DNA of 64,000 nt from Escherichia coli (GTDB lineage Bacteria; Pseudomonadota; Gammaproteobacteria; Enterobacterales; Enterobacteriaceae), in the NCBI RefSeq assembly GCF_009931435.1, contig NZ_CP043414.1, one strand, 5' to 3'. Position 1 is the stretch's first letter. Each line of letters begins with the position of its first letter. The position numbers and the translations under genes were made by a program. The notes under the pieces were generated by a model. The model was not told the DNA's origin. It saw nothing but the letters and a program-made list of their open reading frames with translations, and did no database searches. Below are positions 41,639 to 56,200 of this stretch, piece after piece.

Positions 41639-42619
41639 ATGAACGCAATAATATCGCCCGATTATTACTATGTTCTTACCGTTGCCGGTCAGTCTAATGC
41701 CATGGCGTATGGCGAAGGACTGCCATTACCGGACAGGGAAGATGCGCCTCATCCCAGGATTAAACAATTAGCGAGATTCGCGCATACGCATCCCGGAGGC
41801 CCCTCATGTCACTTTAACGACATTATTCCACTGACTCACTGCCCACACGATGTTCAGGATATGCAGGGTTATCACCATCCTCTGGCAACGAATCATCAAA
41901 CACAGTACGGCACCGTTGGCCAGGCACTGCATATTGCACGGAAATTACTGCCCTTTATTCCTGATAATGCAGGGGTTCTCATCGTTCCGTGTTGCCGTGG
42001 CGGATCGGCTTTTACCGCGGGCAGCGAAGGGACATATTCAGAACGGCACGGAGCCAGCCATGATGCTTGTCGTTGGGGAACGGATACTCCGCTATACCAG
42101 GATTTAGTCAGCAGAACGCGAGCCGCACTGGCAAAAAATCCGCAGAACAAATTCCTCGGCGTATGCTGGATGCAAGGCGAATTTGACCTAATGACCAGTG
42201 ACTACGCGTCACACCCTCAACACTTTAATCATATGGTTAAAGCCTTTCGTAGGGATCTAAAACAATACCATTCTCAGCTTAATAAAATTACTGACGCGCC
42301 GTGGTTTTGCGGCGATACCACCTGGTACTGGAAAGAAAATTTCCCTCATGCGTATGAAGCTATTTATGGCAATTATCAAAATAATGTTTTAGCCAATATT
42401 ATTTTCGTCGACTTCCAGCAACAAGGTGCAAGAGGACTGACGAACGCGCCTGATGAAGATCCAGACGATTTAAGCACGGGATATTTCGGTTCAGCGTACC
42501 GGTCAGCGGAGAACTGGACGACGTCACTGCGAAGCAGTCATTTCAGCTCAGCAGCCCGTCGGGGGATTATTTCTGACAGATTTGTAGAAGCAATTTTGCA
42601 GTTTTGGCGCGAAAGGTGA
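41639..42619 (+). CDS. nanS: 9-O-acetyl-N-acetylneuraminate esterase (326 aa)
   Basis: ORF following nanM; ATG 41639. Confidence 0.8.
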   Translation: MNAIISPDYYYVLTVAGQSNAMAYGEGLPLPDREDAPHPRIKQLARFAHTHPGGPSCHFNDIIPLTHCPHDVQDMQGYHHPLATNHQTQYGTVGQALHIARKLLPFIPDNAGVLIVPCCRGGSAFTAGSEGTYSERHGASHDACRWGTDTPLYQDLVSRTRAALAKNPQNKFLGVCWMQGEFDLMTSDYASHPQHFNHMVKAFRRDLKQYHSQLNKITDAPWFCGDTTWYWKENFPHAYEAIYGNYQNNVLANIIFVDFQQQGARGLTNAPDEDPDDLSTGYFGSAYRSAENWTTSLRSSHFSSAARRGIISDRFVEAILQFWRER

Positions 42620-42672
42620 GCGTTCATTAATTTGATTTATTTGCATCCATCAACGCTTTTAACTGCTCCGGC

Positions 42673-43430
42673 GTGCGGCACTATAATGGTTTTCACAACA
42701 AGGAGCCATTTTCTTATACCACTTTCAGAGACCATCCGCTTATGCCACCGCCCTCTACGCAACTGTTTGCAGAGCACCTTCCCACCGAGTGGATACAGCA
42801 CCTCCTGACGCTTTCTGCTCATGCGACTATTTGTCGTCTTAACCTGAGCGCGGATGGCGAAGCGGGGATTAGCCTGCTGGCCCGCAGCGCTGTCACCCAG
42901 GAGCGCCAGCGCGTGGGGGCCCCCTGGTGGAATGGCTCTTCCGCCAGACCGCACAGACATGGGGCGCGGAACGTTACCTGAAGGATGACTGGCACGGCCT
43001 GCAACTTTTTGCCATTGATGGCGCACAGTTCAGGACACCTATGAACCTGAGTTGCGTGAATATTATGGCTCTGCCAACACATCCACTGAGCGGCAGAGCG
43101 CCTACCCGGTCATGCGTCTGGTGGCGTTAATGAATCTGGGAATCACATTCTGCTGAATGCCATGACCGCGGCCTACCGGCGGAGCGATACAGCGTGAGGC
43201 AACTAAAGCGGCGTCAGAAATCAGCTTTAAGTTCGCATTCCAGTTTATCGTGACAGAAATGATAGTGCAGGGAAATACGGCGTCACCAGGAACCATCCCG
43301 AAACGGCTGGAGCATCTGCGGGGTGCTCTGGAAGCGGTGTTCCCACGACTATCAAGGCCGAGGGCTGTTAAGGTATCAAAAACCCGTTATCCGGTGAAAC
43401 ACAGTGCTGCCCCGCTTAAGTGACGGCATT
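42673..43430 (+). pseudogene. IS4-family transposase remnant, frameshifted and internally deleted (N-terminal and C-terminal parts only)
   Basis: Broken frames carrying segments that resemble, as recalled, N- and C-terminal parts of IS4 InsG (FRQTAQTWG...LQLFAIDGAQFRTP; PVMRLVALMNL; ASPGTIPKRLEHL...FPRLSRPRAVK); no intact DDE core. Confidence 0.6.
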
Positions 43431-43593
43431 GTGTTTCTGACTGGCCTTAACTTTCCCTGAATCTCTGACGATCCTCACCATTGATATTTTCTTCATTCCT
43501 CACCAGAGAAATAAAAAATCACTATACTCATCAAAATATGATGATCACCTTTATTCAGGTGATCACCTTACTATTTTATACGGAAAATAAATC

Positions 43594-44244
43594 ATGAATA
43601 TCCGTCAATCATTACATGACCGAATCTATGCAGAATACCCTCAACAGGCTAAAGATATATTACTGTATTTCCCCACTTATGAAATTATGCCATCGACCAT
43701 AAAAATGGTTATGATTAATGAGGTGGTAGCTATAACACCGCAAGAAGATTTTTATACACCAGAGTCTGGTTATTTTACGACTGTCGCCCGACAGTTAGCG
43801 CTGGCTGGATTATCGGCAAGTAGTGGCGAAGTCTTACTCAACCATGGTATCTACCTGACCTCCGCACTGAAACTACCTAAAACACAGATCACAGCCACAC
43901 CCGCGGAGATCATTCTCTGGTCACCTATTGTAGAATGGGAGCTCGAACTCTTTGCCAATATAAAAGTTATTTTCGTTGGCGGCGATATCGCGCGAAAATG
44001 CCTTAACATCATCGCGAAAAAGCAAACACGTAAACATGCCATCCCTTCAACTCCGACGTACAAACTGATGAATAGCGAATTAGTCTGGAAAGGAATAAGC
44101 ATACTTCCTGGATATATTCTTACCGGAAAAAACCTGCTCATTGAAAAGTCAAAAATCGAAATGAATGTCGAGCAATTAAGAAAAGGAATTGCGATTTATC
44201 GCAATAGTAACAGTAACCATACGAATAATTCAGTTCATGAATAA
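43594..44244 (+). CDS. hypothetical protein (216 aa), AT-rich orphan gene
   Basis: Clean ORF in an AT-rich stretch, convergent with the helicase operon; no family recognised. Confidence 0.5.
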   Translation: MNIRQSLHDRIYAEYPQQAKDILLYFPTYEIMPSTIKMVMINEVVAITPQEDFYTPESGYFTTVARQLALAGLSASSGEVLLNHGIYLTSALKLPKTQITATPAEIILWSPIVEWELELFANIKVIFVGGDIARKCLNIIAKKQTRKHAIPSTPTYKLMNSELVWKGISILPGYILTGKNLLIEKSKIEMNVEQLRKGIAIYRNSNSNHTNNSVHE

Positions 44245-44757
44245 GAGATGAATCATTAATAACAAGAAATCACTGACAAACCACCTGTAAAAGGTCAATC
44301 ATTTTAGTTCAATTTCCTTTGTCATGATTATATTTTTATCGTCCTGACGATACTATTAACAATTACAATATTTATACCCTCCCCTGAACAAACAGAAAAG
44401 AACTCATACATTCGTTTATAATTCTGGTAATCCTGGCATCATACGTTTAAAATTTAAGGTGTTTGTTTTATAATCATGGTTCCAAAGACTATTGGTCACC
44501 AGAAAATGCCAGCCTTTTCGTGCCAGCTATATTTGTCCAGTGTGTTACCCCATCCAAAAATCATCCACATCCTGATGTTATGTTAGATATAGAGAAAACA
44601 GGTTGTACTGTGCAATATGCTAACCGCATAAGCGAATATAATTTCTAAGCTGATATTGTCTGGCTGTTGGGAGCTAAACAATATAAATATCGCCAGTTGC
44701 CAGAACGGTTATATAGACCAGGAGCGTTTCGGCTCCTGGTCTGTTTCGGACATATTA

Positions 44758-46872
44758 TTAATCAGCCACTAATAGCGGACTAGGGATACCAGATGATGAA
44801 ACAAACAGCCCTTTTACGGCACGGGTTGCAGCCACATGCAGTAACGCGCGCTCATTAAATAATGCATCACGCTGTTCAACGGGATCATCGGATGCTAATG
44901 CTTTTATTTCCGGCACAACGCCTTCGTTAATCCCCACCAGGAACACATACTGGAACTCAAGCCCTTTAATACGGTGCATCGTTGCAACTCGCACGCCTGG
45001 GCGTGCATCGCTGTCACCGCTATCATTGCCTAAATTAAATGTCTCAATTCCGGCGTCATTGAGTGCTGATGCGTAGCGGTCACAAGCATGTTTAGTACGC
45101 GCAGTAATGCAGATATCCTGAGAACGAACCTGATTCGCCAGCAATGCCTGAATTTGCTTGACGAGTGTTGCAGCCTCTTCTTTGAAATCTGCCGCATGCG
45201 TAATCATGGGCTTTTCCCCGTGCAGTAATGACAAATAATCATTACTGGTATCCGCTTCGCCATCGAGGTTATCAACCTTCACACCAGTTAACAGCCCAAC
45301 AGCAAATTGACGCGTCTCTTCTGTGGTCCGATAGTTAATCTTCAATTTTTTACTGCGACGACCACGGACGTTAATACCACACTGACCAAGAACGACCTTA
45401 TTGCGATAAATACGCTGATGCCCATCCCCGACAATAAACAGATCGTTGGGCGACTCGGGAACCAGGCTGCGAATAAGAGTAAATGCCGGGGCACCGATAT
45501 CTTGAGCTTCATCGACGACAATACTGCTATAAGGTAGTTGGACCTGCTTTTCTTTAAACAGAACAATAGCCTCATGCATGGCATCGCCCATTTCGCGCAG
45601 TTTGGCACGCGCCATTTGTGCTCTGAATTCTTCGAAAACTGGCCAGATTTTCGCCCGTTGAATACGGGATAACGCTGTACCACGTCCAACCCGGCTGACT
45701 TTGAGGTATTCCTCCCGGGTGTAAACCGCATTTGGCTGGACAACGCGTTGCCACTCTTCAGCATAGAAATTGTCAGGTAGCCCCAGTTCGGCAGGTGCCT
45801 GCTGCAAGGCATAGTTCCAGCATTTACGTCGCCCTTCATCGCTGTCGTATACCACGCGGAAATCATAACCGTGGCGTTTTAGTTGGTCGCTCATCCAGGC
45901 ATCAATGTTAACGACGTCAATACGCGCCATCTCTTCTCGCGTACACAACCGCTGGAGATTAGCGCGAATATCTGCCGCCAGGTTACGCGTAAAGGTCGTG
46001 AAAAGTACCTTCTTACCGGGTTTATCTACCAGACGCTGAGATAACCACCGCGCACGGTGCATTGCAACAACCGTTTTCCCTGTACCTGCACCGCCCAGTA
46101 CTCGTACCGGACCATTAGCGGGCGACTCCACCAGTTTTCGCTGGCTCGGGTGCAGAAATACACGCCATTTTTCTAAAGGCGCATTAAGCATCTGCAATAG
46201 TTCCTGTTCATTTTCAACGACATGGAAGCGACGTTTACTTCGTTCAATCGCCTCCATAAAGTCGTTGGTATCAACAGGCTCATCACGATGATCGTTAAAC
46301 TCTTCCAGCACTTCCTGGTAATCCAGCCCTTCTGCCAGCCAGTGCAGAGGTTCCCAGGCTTCTGCTGGCATTATGCTTTCAAGTTGATTAAGCCCGGCTT
46401 CATCGGTAAGCGCCATCACCTGATCAATAAAGACAGGCGGCACACCCAGGGCCAGAATCTGTTCCGCGCTGTAAGCTGCGAAGAGTTTCGGTTTATCAAC
46501 CACCGTTTCCGCTGCCGGTTTGATATAGCTAATATCAATGACCTGAATCGCGCCAGTAACCGGGTGAATCGAACAATCATGCCGCCGCGCCCAGTCATAT
46601 GCTTCGTCGTGTTTATCCACCCACATCAGCATATACAGAGCACCCTGTTCAGGTTTCAGAACAATGCCGCGATAAGTTTGATCGATTCGCACCGAATGGA
46701 CATTTTTACTGCGCGCATCGTGGATCTTTTCATAGTTAAGTCCATTACTGGTCGGGTCCTGACGGAATTTGGAGATGAATTCCTGCACCTTTTTTTGCTG
46801 TGCTTTTGGGATCCGCGCGAATGCGCCCAGAAAACCATCAGAAAGTGCCACCTTGGGCGTTTGCACCGTCAT
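44758..46872 (-). CDS. UvrD/Rep-like superfamily 1 helicase (704 aa), last gene of defence-like operon
   Basis: Q-motif and Walker A (LHPSQRKLV...GGAGTGKT), VVDEAQD, GDGHQRIY, YRTTEE, MHRIKGLEF; ATG overlaps upstream stop (ATGA). Confidence 0.8.
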   Translation of the reverse strand: MTVQTPKVALSDGFLGAFARIPKAQQKKVQEFISKFRQDPTSNGLNYEKIHDARSKNVHSVRIDQTYRGIVLKPEQGALYMLMWVDKHDEAYDWARRHDCSIHPVTGAIQVIDISYIKPAAETVVDKPKLFAAYSAEQILALGVPPVFIDQVMALTDEAGLNQLESIMPAEAWEPLHWLAEGLDYQEVLEEFNDHRDEPVDTNDFMEAIERSKRRFHVVENEQELLQMLNAPLEKWRVFLHPSQRKLVESPANGPVRVLGGAGTGKTVVAMHRARWLSQRLVDKPGKKVLFTTFTRNLAADIRANLQRLCTREEMARIDVVNIDAWMSDQLKRHGYDFRVVYDSDEGRRKCWNYALQQAPAELGLPDNFYAEEWQRVVQPNAVYTREEYLKVSRVGRGTALSRIQRAKIWPVFEEFRAQMARAKLREMGDAMHEAIVLFKEKQVQLPYSSIVVDEAQDIGAPAFTLIRSLVPESPNDLFIVGDGHQRIYRNKVVLGQCGINVRGRRSKKLKINYRTTEETRQFAVGLLTGVKVDNLDGEADTSNDYLSLLHGEKPMITHAADFKEEAATLVKQIQALLANQVRSQDICITARTKHACDRYASALNDAGIETFNLGNDSGDSDARPGVRVATMHRIKGLEFQYVFLVGINEGVVPEIKALASDDPVEQRDALFNERALLHVAATRAVKGLFVSSSGIPSPLLVAD

Positions 46873-53210: not shown

Positions 53211-56200
53211 CAGGCGCTCTCCTTATCTTGTGCAAAGAACGCCCAGGCCACTTTGTAGTCGTCTTCGCGATCCGGCTTGATAAACGGTGCCTGCCAGGTG
53301 ACGGTACGGCGCTCGCCTTCGTCGCTGCGGGTATAGTCATCAAAGGTGACGCTGACGGTACCGGTTTGCAAATGTTTGACATCATCCCAACCGATGGCTT
53401 GATCGGTGCAGTCACCGCCGGTCCACTCCGGGCTGTCGACGTTAAAGACAAAGCCGTTTTTCAGGTCAGCTTTACGCGCGGTGCGAGGCAAGCCAACGCC
53501 CACCAACCCTTTGCTTGGGGTAAAGATGATGCGGCCGTTTTGGTCGTACCAGGTGTCCGCTTCGTACTGACGCATCACCGGGAACTGTACACGGTAAATG
53601 GTAAGCAGCTCTTCGAGGGTTAACCCCAGCGCCTGTGCCACCAGAACGTCGATTTCCACCAGCGCCTGACGACGACTGTAGTCGGAGCGTAAGGCACAGT
53701 TACGCTGCCACTCTGGGGTCAGATTGGCGAAGAAATCTTGTGGGAGCTGCGGGAGATCGCGGCTCCAGCGTTGGGTATTGAAGTCTGGGGTGTAGCAGGA
53801 TTGCCAAAGGCCAGCATATACATCATTTACAGAATTTAATGATAATACTAAGCAGTATAATAATGCCTTTTGTCTCGGATTGAATAATACGTATGAGAAA
53901 CCATCAAGCATCTGATGTAAGTTTGCCTTGCCAGTAGATTTACAAATAAAATCAAAAGGTAAAGAAAAACACATACCTGAATGTTCGAGTAACTGATTCT
54001 GTGAGCTATAGCAGTAAGAACGTACTGCGTTCATGTGACTTATTTCTGGCGGATAAATAGCACTAATTAGTGTACGTTCCCCCGATTGAGCCAACATGGC
54101 TCTGATAGCTAAGCGATAATAATCTGTTACCTTCTTCGGTTCATCTTCAGCCAGTTCAGTCCATGTAACGCATGGAGTACGTTTGGCATACTCCTGTGCA
54201 TCACAGGCTGGAATATAGTTAGTGCGCGGCAAATAGTCGTCGGGCAGAGTTAGCAAGTCTAGGTTATCGTATGCTTTATTCGTGTCACAAACCGCTCTAG
54301 GCGTATTGTAGAAAGGATTGCCAACAAAAAAATGAGGGCCAGACAAAACCCATTGTGATGCTTCTTCCGGGAACTGTGTATGTCGCTCAATTGTACCATC
54401 GCTTTGCTGATTAGTTTCATGCCACATTTCTAGAGAATAATATTGCCCCTGCAAATCACCTAATCGCCTAGGTTGTTTCGCAAACTTTTCAAGTACTGTA
54501 ACTAATTGTGTAGCATGCAACGCAGGAAGACGGGCTTCCTGGGCAGGAGTTCCGACAACATCATAAAGACGCGCAAAAAGACCCAACTGTTTTAAATTTA
54601 TAGGCACGACTCGATCGAAATGTCCCTGGAAATTCCATTTAACTTTTACTTTGCCATCGATTTCAGTTTCTTCTTTTATCCCCGGGACAATGCCTTCCCC
54701 TTTATGTTCAAAACACGCGTCAATAGTTTGAGGAATAAATAAATTTGCTATATTTGAGAATGCCACTATCTGAGAATAGGGGCCATATACATTGATGCTA
54801 AATCTAGTGTGATTATCTACTTCAGCAAATATTTTAACTTCATTGGCAAATTGAAAATGCGCCCTCAACCTCGGGTACACTGCCGCACGCAACTGCCCAC
54901 CTTTCGGGTCATCATAAATCCCTTCCGGGTGCAGGAAGCCTGCCACGCCTTTCTCTGCCCCTAAGCGCCATGCCTGCGGCAGGAAGCATTTATACAAGTT
55001 GGTCTGCACCCCGCGCAGTACCGGGTAGTTTTGCTGCGCATTGAGGAAGTTTTGCATCCCTTCACAGCCTTCATACTCGCTGCGCCAGGCCGCTTCCAGC
55101 GCTGGGATCTGGTTAAAGGTATCAACACGCAACGTTGCCAGCTTCGATGCACTCAGCTTACGCAGCACAAATTCCGGCTCGTAATCACCCAGCACGCCCG
55201 CTTCCTGCCATTCCACTTTTAGCCACGGCGGGTTTCCGAGCATCAGGTCAAAACCGCCGCGCTCGGCAAACAAGTCGCAGAACTCCAGATCCCAGTGGAA
55301 GAAACGGTGCTGCTTTCTCAGGGCATCGACAATCGCCAGACGCGGCAAATGGCGGAACAGCACATCGGTTTTCAGACGACCAGCAACGGAAAACAGCGAA
55401 GACTCTTCTCGCAGCAGGCCTTCTTCGGCAAACAGATCGCCAGTGGTGTGATCCGCAACTTCAGTGACTTTTTCCGTGATTACAATCCCGTCGAGCAGGG
55501 TTTCAATCTCAAACAACCAGGTACCGCGATCCGGTAGCTCATCAGCTTTGTCGATCGGCCAGAACCACAGCGCGCACCAGTAGTCCATCACCCAACGCAG
55601 CTTCTGGTAGGCGCTGTTATCTTCAAGACGACCGCTAAAGGTTTCATCTTTACTGCTCAGCGAAGAACGTGTCTGCTCGCTGTTTTCTGCCGGCCACACC
55701 GGGTAGCTGTCGGCGGTTTTCAGACGTTCTGCTTTAAGTTGCTGGCGATAGGTGTTCCACAGTGCTTCCACCTTTTCGCTGATACGCTGCACATCAGCAA
55801 TCTCATGCCCGGCAAAGCTTTTAATAAACTCTTTGCGCCAGCTGTCCAGCGCTTTGAAGTCATCCGGATAACGCTGCTTAACAGTTTTATCGCTGTAATT
55901 AGCCATACCGCCGTCGGGCAGCAGGAAGTGGAAAATCTGCGTCTCTTCACGCGGCGTGTTCATCGCCAGTTCGACCGGCTCGCTGTTAAGCCAGCTCGGA
56001 TCTTTGACTTTTTTGTAGGTCAGTTCGCTCTTGTTGAACACCTGACGGCGCGCGCCCACCAGCGAGTTACCGCAGTGCAGCTGGTAACCAAACCACGGTA
56101 CAAAGGCATCGCCACTGATGGCGTTCAGCCACAGTGACACTTCCGCCAGCTCCACCGCCACCGGGTTTAAGTCCACGCCGAAAACGTTGTTGTCGGCAAT

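What the first reader, a model, noticed from the sequence alone, without database searches (positions are those of the whole stretch)
42640..43470. Internally deleted IS4-family transposase remnant marking the island boundary
Frameshifted fragments that resemble, as recalled, the N-terminal about 240 aa and C-terminal about 50 aa of IS4 InsG, with the DDE catalytic core missing, lie between nanS and the defence locus. This is a recombination scar that may date the acquisition or rearrangement of the adjacent island.
Basis: partly seen in the sequence, partly recalled or inferred. Interest (0 to 1): 0.45.

Follow-up and report, generated by a model that had tools for sequence, protein, structure and literature searches.

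The report
Dead IS4-family insertion sequence relic
This is the decayed, immobile leftover of an IS4-family jumping gene (not IS4 itself) sitting at the left edge of a known 32-kb phage-defence island next to nanS in E. coli; it is an ordinary pseudogene, useful only as a marker of how the island was joined to the chromosome.

Summary
Window 42674-43431 (+ strand, 758 bp) is a frameshifted, internally deleted IS4-family transposase relic. It lies between nanS and the defence genes. RefSeq already annotates it as "transposase, frameshifted".

Three details need correcting.
- It is not IS4/InsG. InsG is only 38% identical in protein, with no DNA similarity. The relic belongs to the IS type of the K-12 insZ (ISZ') pseudogene, at 91-93% nucleotide identity. 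Intact 445-aa relatives exist.
- About 160 of the first 195 residues and about 80 C-terminal residues survive. The first catalytic Asp is kept; the second Asp and the Glu fall in a 488-bp deletion.
- The first 41 bp, including the left inverted repeat, are missing. The start codon is ATA. The right inverted repeat ends at 43431. The relic cannot move.

The truncated left end abuts the last 14 codons of an HNH endonuclease gene (42620-42673). In 43% of complete E. coli genomes that gene continues intact. So 42673|42674 is the left joint of the ~32-kb O-island-172 block (ARMADA II, Druantia III, Zorya II).

The same scar occurs in about 445 of 5426 genomes, in two haplotypes about 5% apart. It therefore predates their split and has drifted at roughly the neutral rate.

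Verdict: ordinary, low interest.

The parts
42620..42673 (-). 54-bp tail of an HNH endonuclease gene: the last 14 codons plus the stop at 42627-42629, then 7 bp. It is shared with genomes that lack the island.
   Evidence: Window 42627-42674 (-) translates to TPEQLKALMDANKSN*. This equals the C-terminus of the full 216-aa HNH endonuclease in L009. Strain A25 matches the window over 42250-42673 at 97.2% and its homology ends at 42673. The continuity from the 54 bp into HNH occurs in 2347 genomes.
42674..43431 (+). IS4-family (insZ/ISZ'-type) insertion sequence remnant: 758 bp of a roughly 1429-bp element, 5'-truncated and internally deleted.
   Evidence: Alignment A1 to three other copies. Block map: 92.5% identity to the sil-linked copy L002, 90.8% to the K-12 adhE-tdk copy and 86.9% to a ColV plasmid copy. 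RefSeq annotates the same stretch as a frameshifted transposase.
42673..42674 (.). Left joint: HNH codon about 202 fused to nucleotide 42 of the IS. The first 41 bp of the IS, including the left inverted repeat, are absent. There is no microhomology at the joint.
   Evidence: Alignment A2. Reference left ends were defined by target duplications.
42716..42718 (+). Former transposase start codon, now ATA.
   Evidence: TTATACCAC here and in O157, against TTATGCCAC in the other copies.
42722..42723 (+). Joint of a 19-bp deletion (reference codons 3-9).
   Evidence: Shared with O157:H7.
42827..42828 (+). Joint of an 87-bp in-frame deletion (reference aa 45-73, inside the Nterm_IS4 domain).
   Evidence: Shared with O157:H7.
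42915..43040 (+). Fragment encoding reference aa 103-144, including the first catalytic Asp (LFAIDGAQFRTP).
   Evidence: One-base deletions at 42921|42922, 43040|43041 and 43142|43143 change the frame.
43187..43188 (+). Joint of the 488-bp deletion (reference aa 194-357). It removes the second Asp and the Glu/YREK motif of the DDE domain.
   Evidence: The same joint is present in O157:H7.
43205..43420 (+). C-terminal fragment (reference aa 370-445), with a 12-bp deletion at 43342|43343 that is specific to the window-type haplotype.
43411..43431 (+). Right inverted repeat (CCGCTTAAGTG-ACGGCATTG), intact apart from a one-base deletion. The IS ends at 43431.
43432..43593 (.). Original right-hand target flank of the IS. 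It is found only together with the remnant.
   Evidence: The flank is present in 448 genomes, against 441-444 with the remnant junction.
43594..44244 (+). Neighbouring 216-aa gene, annotated as a uracil-DNA glycosylase family protein. It is context only and is absent from the O157-type haplotype.
   Evidence: No Pfam or PADLOC hit.
44758..46872 (-). armD-like UvrD-type helicase, the first gene of the ARMADA II / Druantia III / Zorya II block (context).
   Evidence: bioRxiv 10.1101/2025.09.22.677730.

Best explanation
Window 42674-43431 is an inert molecular fossil of an IS4-family insertion sequence. The element is of the type represented by the K-12 insZ (ISZ') pseudogene. The parent was about 1429 bp long, encoded a 445-aa DDE transposase, had IS4-like terminal repeats, and made 10-11-bp target duplications.

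**History**
1. Inferred: the element transposed into DNA lying just beyond armD of the ARMADA II / Druantia III / Zorya II block. Its right end and right target flank are still intact.
2. Shown: its first 41 bp are gone, and nucleotide 42 is fused, without microhomology, to the last 14 codons of an HNH endonuclease gene that normally follows nanS. Inferred: an illegitimate recombination or deletion made this joint.
3. Shown: the start codon is lost; there are 19-, 87- and 488-bp deletions; several one-base frameshifts are present.

**Current state**
- It encodes no transposase, lacks one terminal repeat, and cannot move or be mobilised.
- The joint 42673|42674 is the left boundary of the ~32-kb defence block relative to the commonest E. 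coli arrangement (nanS-HNH-PT-DNA endonuclease).
- In the closest complete genomes the block ends, outside this window, with a second decayed copy of nanM 5' + nanS 3' + the same 54 bp. That copy runs on into an intact HNH gene. The block is therefore bracketed by 184-bp diverged direct repeats.
- The scar predates the split of two island haplotypes and has since drifted at about the neutral rate.
For: **Family and parent**
- Repairing one base in the sil-linked copy gives a 445-aa ORF with Nterm_IS4 (E=6e-30), DDE_Tnp_1 (E=1e-18) and NF033592 (253 bits, cut-off 115).
- Intact 445-aa proteins at 96% identity exist in E. coli, and at about 78-90% in Salmonella, Buttiauxella and Serratia.

**Lesions and ends**
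- The lesions are mapped.
- Three other copies have both inverted repeats and 10-11-bp target duplications. The window has only the right repeat.
- No other piece of the IS lies in the window or in the island of two reference genomes.

**Boundary**
- Homology with island-free genomes ends at 42673. The 54 bp encode the HNH C-terminus.

**Population**
- The remnant junction occurs in 441-444 genomes and the right flank in 448 of 5426 genomes.
- The HNH-continuity junction occurs in 2347 genomes and the K-12-type junction in 1741.
- O157:H7 carries the same left joint and the same 19-, 87- and 488-bp deletions, but lacks four of the window's small deletions.

**Divergence between the two haplotypes**
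- 5.2% in the remnant, 6.5% in the flank, and 3.7-4.4% at four-fold sites of armD and armC.

**Far end and block identity**
- The far-end repeat is shown.
- Block identity rests, and on bioRxiv 10.1101/2025.09.22.677730.
- No Rfam family matches the region.
Against: - The order of events cannot be recovered from extant sequences: IS insertion, truncation, internal deletions and island installation.
- No genome in the collection shows the right flank with an intact IS or with an empty site.
- The far-end repeat lies beyond the window. It was seen only in genomes 98-99.5% identical to it.
- Substitutions between the two dead copies are skewed to third codon positions: 7, 8 and 20 (p about 0.01). 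Pure neutral decay does not predict this. It suggests either gene conversion with other IS copies or some unrecognised constraint.
Confidence: 0.9

Rival explanations
1. It is a deleted copy of IS4 proper, with the K-12 insG transposase.
For: It is the same family. InsG and the parent transposase align end to end (38% identity, E=7e-79). The first 35 bp of the parent's left end match the IS4 left end at 33 of 35 positions.
Against: IS4 DNA has no significant match anywhere in the window. Direct InsG tblastn on the remnant gives only E=9e-6 over 76 residues. In contrast the remnant is 91-93% identical in DNA to insZ-type copies.
Confidence: 0.02
2. It is a non-autonomous but still mobilisable derivative (MITE-like) that an intact copy elsewhere could move in trans.
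For: Intact 445-aa transposases of the same type exist in some E. coli. The right inverted repeat is nearly intact.
Against: The left inverted repeat and 41 bp are missing. The remnant was seen only at this one chromosomal place, always with the same flanks: 441-448 genomes, all chromosomal. No target duplication is present.
Confidence: 0.02
3. The fragment has been domesticated. A truncated N-terminal DNA-binding protein or an RNA from the remnant regulates neighbouring genes or related IS copies.
For: Substitutions between the two haplotypes are enriched at third codon positions (7, 8, 20). A promoter-like site (TTAACT-17-TATAAT, 10 of 12) straddles the left joint at 42659-42687.
Against: The start codon is ATA in both haplotypes. 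An 87-bp deletion cuts the Nterm_IS4 domain. Three frameshifts interrupt the N-terminal part in the window. The two haplotypes differ in which frameshifts they carry. Overall divergence equals or exceeds the neutral rate of neighbouring genes. There is no Rfam match. Consensus promoter matches are only mildly above shuffled expectation (6 against 3.3).
Confidence: 0.03
4. Alternative history: the 42673|42674 joint is not the joint by which the defence block was installed. It is a later local deletion that happened to remove the IS left end and most of a first HNH copy from an older, larger duplication.
For: The block is bracketed by two copies of nanM/nanS/54 bp that differ by 6-14%. This is compatible with an old duplication followed by decay. 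O157:H7 shows further deletions at the far end, so deletions are frequent here.
Against: No intermediate was found among 5426 genomes: neither a full IS, nor a longer first HNH copy next to the IS. A piece containing Zorya II plus the nanM' fragment also occurs in a tRNA-Phe island in another strain. That suggests the nanM' fragment travels with the cargo rather than being a local duplicate.
Confidence: 0.4

Closest known systems
insZ / ISZ' pseudogene of E. coli K-12 (between adhE and tdk)
   Same: It is the same IS type, at 90.8% nucleotide identity over 704 shared positions. The right inverted repeat is the same. It is also a frameshifted, internally deleted relic. ISZ'/insZ is listed for K-12 in PMC3032704.
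   Different: The K-12 copy keeps both inverted repeats and a 10-bp target duplication. Its internal deletions are different and independent. It sits at another locus.
IS4 (insG transposase) of E. coli K-12
   Same: It belongs to the same IS4 family and has the same domain order (Nterm_IS4 + DDE_Tnp_1). Length is similar (1426 against about 1429 bp). The left-end 35 bp are nearly identical, and target duplications are of similar size.
   Different: Only 38% protein identity and no detectable DNA similarity to the remnant. By the usual ISfinder practice (own knowledge) this is a different IS, not an isoform.
ISCro3 of Citrobacter rodentium
   Same: One database record names a Salmonella protein of this cluster 'ISCro3 transposase'. 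That protein matches the 90%-identity Salmonella homologue P0005 outside a frameshifted stretch. ISCro3 has 14 copies in C. rodentium ICC168 (PMC3072379).
   Different: No ISCro3 sequence was available, so the relationship rests on a label only.
[quoted passage not shown]
   Same: The genes to the right of the remnant are this island: armD-like, armC-like, armB-like and armA-like genes, then druE. The preprint reports it in 426 of 3792 E. coli genomes. That is consistent with the 441-448 of 5426 found here.
   Different: The preprint does not mention the transposase remnant or the island's joints. The window haplotype carries an extra 216-aa gene between the remnant and armD, which O157 lacks.

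Membership tests
IS4 family insertion sequence | Transposase with the N-terminal IS4 domain (Pfam PF13006) | tested here: met
   The remnant fragment hits PF13006 at E=9e-8 (32.8 bits, cut-off 25). It matches only profile positions 58-95, because 87 bp are deleted. The repaired parent hits at E=6e-30.
IS4 family insertion sequence | DDE_Tnp_1 catalytic domain with D, D, E and the Y-(2)-R-(3)-E-(6)-K motif | tested here: not met
   The remnant keeps only the first Asp (AIDG). The second Asp and the YREK/Glu motif lie in the 488-bp deletion. The parent type has all of them: PF01609 E=1e-18, and YHSRWETEVGFRNLK. The remnant is therefore a relic of a member, not a functional member.
IS4 family insertion sequence | Match to the NCBIfam IS4-family equivalog NF033592 | tested here: inconclusive
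   The parent scores 252.8 bits (cut-off 115). The remnant fragment scores 52 bits, E=6e-14. That is below the cut-off because it is partial.
IS4 family insertion sequence | Terminal inverted repeats at both ends | tested here: not met
   The right repeat is present at 43411-43431. The left repeat and the first 41 bp are absent.
IS4 family insertion sequence | Direct target duplication of about 10-13 bp | not testable with these tools
   The left end is missing, so no pair can exist. Three other copies of the same IS show 10-11-bp duplications.
IS4 itself (insG) | Near identity to IS4 in DNA and transposase (isoform level) | tested here: not met
   38% amino-acid identity between InsG and the intact parent-type protein P0001. 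There is no nucleotide match of IS4 in the window.
insZ / ISZ'-type element | High nucleotide identity to the K-12 adhE-tdk copy and its relatives along all retained segments | tested here: met
   90.8% to the K-12 copy, 92.5% to the sil-linked copy and 86.9% to a ColV plasmid copy.
ISCro3 | Sequence identity to the ISfinder ISCro3 entry | not tested
   No ISCro3 or ISfinder sequence is reachable. The only evidence is a source label on one related protein.

The most novel reading that the evidence does not exclude
The truncated IS end may be the actual illegitimate joint by which the whole three-system defence block was installed beside nanS as one cassette.

- Two possible routes are homology-facilitated illegitimate recombination, or integration of a circular intermediate that carried its own nanM'-nanS'-54-bp segment.
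- The resulting 184-bp diverged direct repeats would then bracket the block and could mediate its loss or transfer between lineages.
- The scar would be a traceable marker of how a multi-system defence island moves without its own integrase.
Probability: 0.3. Interest if true: 0.35.

Novelty: already known. Interest (0 to 1): 0.1.

Why it matters
It matters little in itself. It is a dead insertion sequence that RefSeq already flags as a frameshifted transposase, and it is of a type known as a pseudogene in K-12.

Its practical value is as a landmark. The joint at 42673|42674 defines to the base where the O-island-172 defence block (ARMADA II, Druantia III, Zorya II) meets the common nanS-HNH arrangement. 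The shared scar shows that the block in O157:H7, O145:H28 and phylogroup-F-like strains descends from one installation event. The repeat structure at the two ends offers a testable idea about how the block was acquired and could be lost.

Tried and rejected
- **IS4 proper.** Rejected: no DNA similarity and 38% protein identity.
- **Degenerate left inverted repeat at about 42636-42660.** The first multiple alignment suggested one. It was rejected once island-free genomes proved to share 42620-42673, and the stretch proved to encode the HNH C-terminus.
- **Target-site duplication.** The search was not possible without the left end. The 11 bp right of the IS (TGTTTCTGACT) have no copy at the left joint.
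- **Missing 41-bp left end or other IS pieces elsewhere.** Searched in the window, and at the far end of the island in two genomes. None was found.
- **Simple insertion into the HNH gene.** Rejected: the right flank has no similarity to HNH or to island-free genomes.
- **Same right junction in other species.** The scan of one genome per species for ACGGCATTGTGTTTCTGA gave 11 hits, all in unrelated taxa. About 9 are expected by chance for 18 bases in 298 Gb, so they are uninformative.
- **Structured RNA.** Rfam gave nothing.
- **druE interrupted in this strain.** Checked and rejected. The short ORF in the ORF list is an artefact of the window end.
- **Technical note.** Several fetched loci were not copied to the Python sandbox. 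Their sequences were recovered through alignment files instead.

Full report
**What is in the sequence.** The window is E. coli chromosome around fimB-nanC-nanM-nanS. The nanS reading frame stops at 42619. Translating 42600-43500 in all frames gives recognisable transposase pieces in three + strand frames. The same stretch is annotated in RefSeq genomes as "transposase, frameshifted" or "transposase domain-containing protein, frameshifted".

**Which insertion sequence.** Megablast against 5426 complete E. coli genomes found the full stretch in 441 genomes. Partial matches at 92-93% fell on pseudogenes annotated as IS4-family transposase. Three other copies were fetched:
- one beside silE (L002);
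- one on a ColV plasmid (L003);
- the K-12 copy between adhE and tdk (L004), which the literature lists as ISZ'/insZ.

A four-way alignment (A1) shows the window copy is 92.5%, 86.9% and 90.8% identical to these over shared positions. Inserting one base into L002 restores a 445-aa reading frame. That frame carries Nterm_IS4, DDE_Tnp_1 and the NCBIfam IS4-family signature. It also has the motif YHSRWETEVGFRNLK.

Intact 445-aa proteins exist at 96% identity in E. coli, and at about 78-90% in Salmonella, Buttiauxella, Scandinavium and Serratia. One related record is labelled "ISCro3 transposase". I could not test that label against an ISCro3 sequence.

K-12 InsG was taken from NC_000913. It is 38% identical to the intact relative over 424 residues. 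IS4 DNA has no match in the window. The family assignment is therefore right, and the assignment to IS4/InsG is wrong.

The ends of the two elements are nevertheless close: 33 of the first 35 bp of the left end are identical. The three reference copies have 10-11-bp target duplications. These lie in GC-rich hairpins followed by T runs.

**Anatomy of the remnant.** The following positions are mapped against the 1429-bp reference.
- IS sequence begins at window 42674, which is reference nucleotide 42. The left inverted repeat is therefore missing.
- The start codon is ATA (42716-42718).
- 19 bp are missing after 42722.
- 87 bp (29 codons of the N-terminal domain) are missing after 42827.
- Single bases are missing at 42921|42922, 43040|43041 and 43142|43143.
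- 488 bp (residues 194-357, holding the second Asp and the Glu) are missing at 43187|43188.
- 21 bp are missing at 43203|43204. This gap is also absent from the plasmid copy.
- 12 bp are missing at 43342|43343.
- The right inverted repeat lacks one base and ends at 43431.

Residues 10-44, 74-195 and 357/370-445 are represented. The first Asp (AIDG) survives.

The element cannot make transposase and has only one end. No other fragment of it lies in the window or in the island of two reference genomes. No Rfam family matches.

**The left joint and the island boundary.** A search with 42250-42850 shows three main arrangements downstream of nanS.
- The remnant arrangement, in 444 genomes.
- Genomes whose homology ends at 42673-42674 and continues into an HNH endonuclease gene. 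The junction-specific count is 2347 genomes.
- K-12-type genomes whose homology ends at 42622. The count is 1741.

Alignment A2 places the switch between 42673 and 42674 with no shared bases. On the minus strand, 42627-42674 encodes TPEQLKALMDANKSN*. This is the C-terminus of the 216-aa HNH endonuclease found intact elsewhere.

So the truncated IS is fused inside the 3' end of that gene. This joint is the left edge of the inserted block relative to the commonest arrangement.

**The block.** To the right lie the following genes.
- A 216-aa gene annotated as a UDG-family protein.
- A UvrD-like helicase.
- A 2113-aa YprA/DruE-like helicase.
- A 1644-aa methyltransferase.
- An SNF2 helicase.
- druE, and beyond the window druH and zorA2B2E.

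This is the O-island-172 defence island of EDL933: ARMADA II armABCD, Druantia III and Zorya II. It is described in bioRxiv 10.1101/2025.09.22.677730, which reports it in 426 of 3792 genomes. That preprint does not mention the transposase remnant.

The window is 98.3-99.2% identical to L009 up to its end. In L009 the block is followed by three elements:
- a second copy of the first 516 bp of nanM (93.8% identical);
- fused to it, the last 130 bp of nanS and the same 54 bp (85.9% including a 12-bp gap);
- then the intact HNH gene, a phosphorothioate-dependent endonuclease gene and leuX.

The ~32-kb block is thus bracketed by 184-bp diverged direct repeats. O157:H7 has the same block with further deletions at the far end. 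The zorE-nanM' joint occurs in 558-572 genomes. In one strain it lies in a tRNA-Phe island with an integrase, so that piece has moved between islands.

**Age and mode of evolution.** The right flank of the IS (43432-43600) occurs in 448 genomes. It never clearly occurs without the remnant. About 92 genomes are of the window type and about 356 of the O157/O145 type.

O157:H7 shares the left joint and the 19-, 87- and 488-bp deletions. It lacks the window's 12-bp deletion and three of its single-base deletions. Divergence between the two types is as follows:
- 5.2% in the remnant;
- 6.5% in the flank;
- 2.4% in the nanS 3' end;
- 3.7-4.4% at four-fold degenerate sites of the two adjacent helicase genes.

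The relic was therefore already dead before the haplotypes split, and it has changed at about the neutral rate.

One oddity remains. The differences fall 7, 8 and 20 on codon positions 1, 2 and 3 of the old frame. Several variants match other copies of the IS. This may reflect gene conversion and would disturb any clock. As a dating device, the scar gives only a minimum age for the joint.

**Most likely history.** The following sequence is inferred, not shown.
1. The IS inserted beyond armD.
2. An illegitimate event joined its nucleotide 42 to the HNH tail next to nanS. This happened either while the block was being installed or in a later deletion.
3. Further deletions followed.
4. The block then diversified and spread.

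I rate the inert-relic reading at 0.9. I rate the idea that the joint is the installation joint itself at about 0.3-0.4.

**Verdict.** The feature is real and its kind was correctly recognised. It was misnamed as IS4/InsG, its fragment sizes were misjudged, and its value for dating was overrated. It is an ordinary, already annotated pseudogene, and interest is low.

Noticed in passing
L009 31885-32568 (would be about 74.8-75.5 kb, beyond the window end): A second, decayed copy of nanM 5' (516 bp, 93.8%) is fused to nanS 3' plus the same 54 bp (85.9%). It lies at the far end of the defence block and runs into an intact HNH endonuclease gene. The block is therefore bracketed by 184-bp diverged direct repeats.
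   Followed up: partly
window 43597-44247: The 216-aa gene annotated as a UDG-family protein is absent from the O157/O145-type haplotype. The gap runs almost exactly from start codon to just past the stop and is flanked by ATGAAT repeats. The protein has no Pfam or PADLOC hit.
   Followed up: partly
window 42674-43431: Differences between the two dead haplotypes are skewed to third codon positions of the old frame (7, 8, 20). Some variants match other copies of the IS. This may reflect gene conversion between IS relics.
   Followed up: partly
window 43542-43565: A near-perfect palindrome, TGATCACCTTTATTCAGGTGATCA, lies about 30 bp upstream of the UDG-family gene start. It could be an operator or a terminator.
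   Followed up: no
window 42548-42646 (-): A small ORF overlaps the nanS 3' end. In K-12 a small ORF annotated protein YthB lies at the equivalent position. Its start codon lies in the variable DNA past 42622, so its N-terminus should differ between island arrangements.
   Followed up: no
window 53806-54111: This segment of the 1644-aa methyltransferase (armB-like) gene does not align to the otherwise 98-99% identical genome L009. That fits the published remark that island diversity is concentrated in armB.
   Followed up: no
L022 15275-20569 (strain ET358): A druH fragment, Zorya II and the nanM' fragment sit in a tRNA-Phe island with an integrase and several IS elements. Part of the block has moved to another island.
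   Followed up: partly
L002, L003, L004 (ends of other copies of the IS): This IS type inserts into GC-rich hairpins followed by T runs (terminator-like sites) and makes 10-11-bp duplications. The K-12 adhE-tdk copy has lost its catalytic core through a different, independent deletion.
   Followed up: partly
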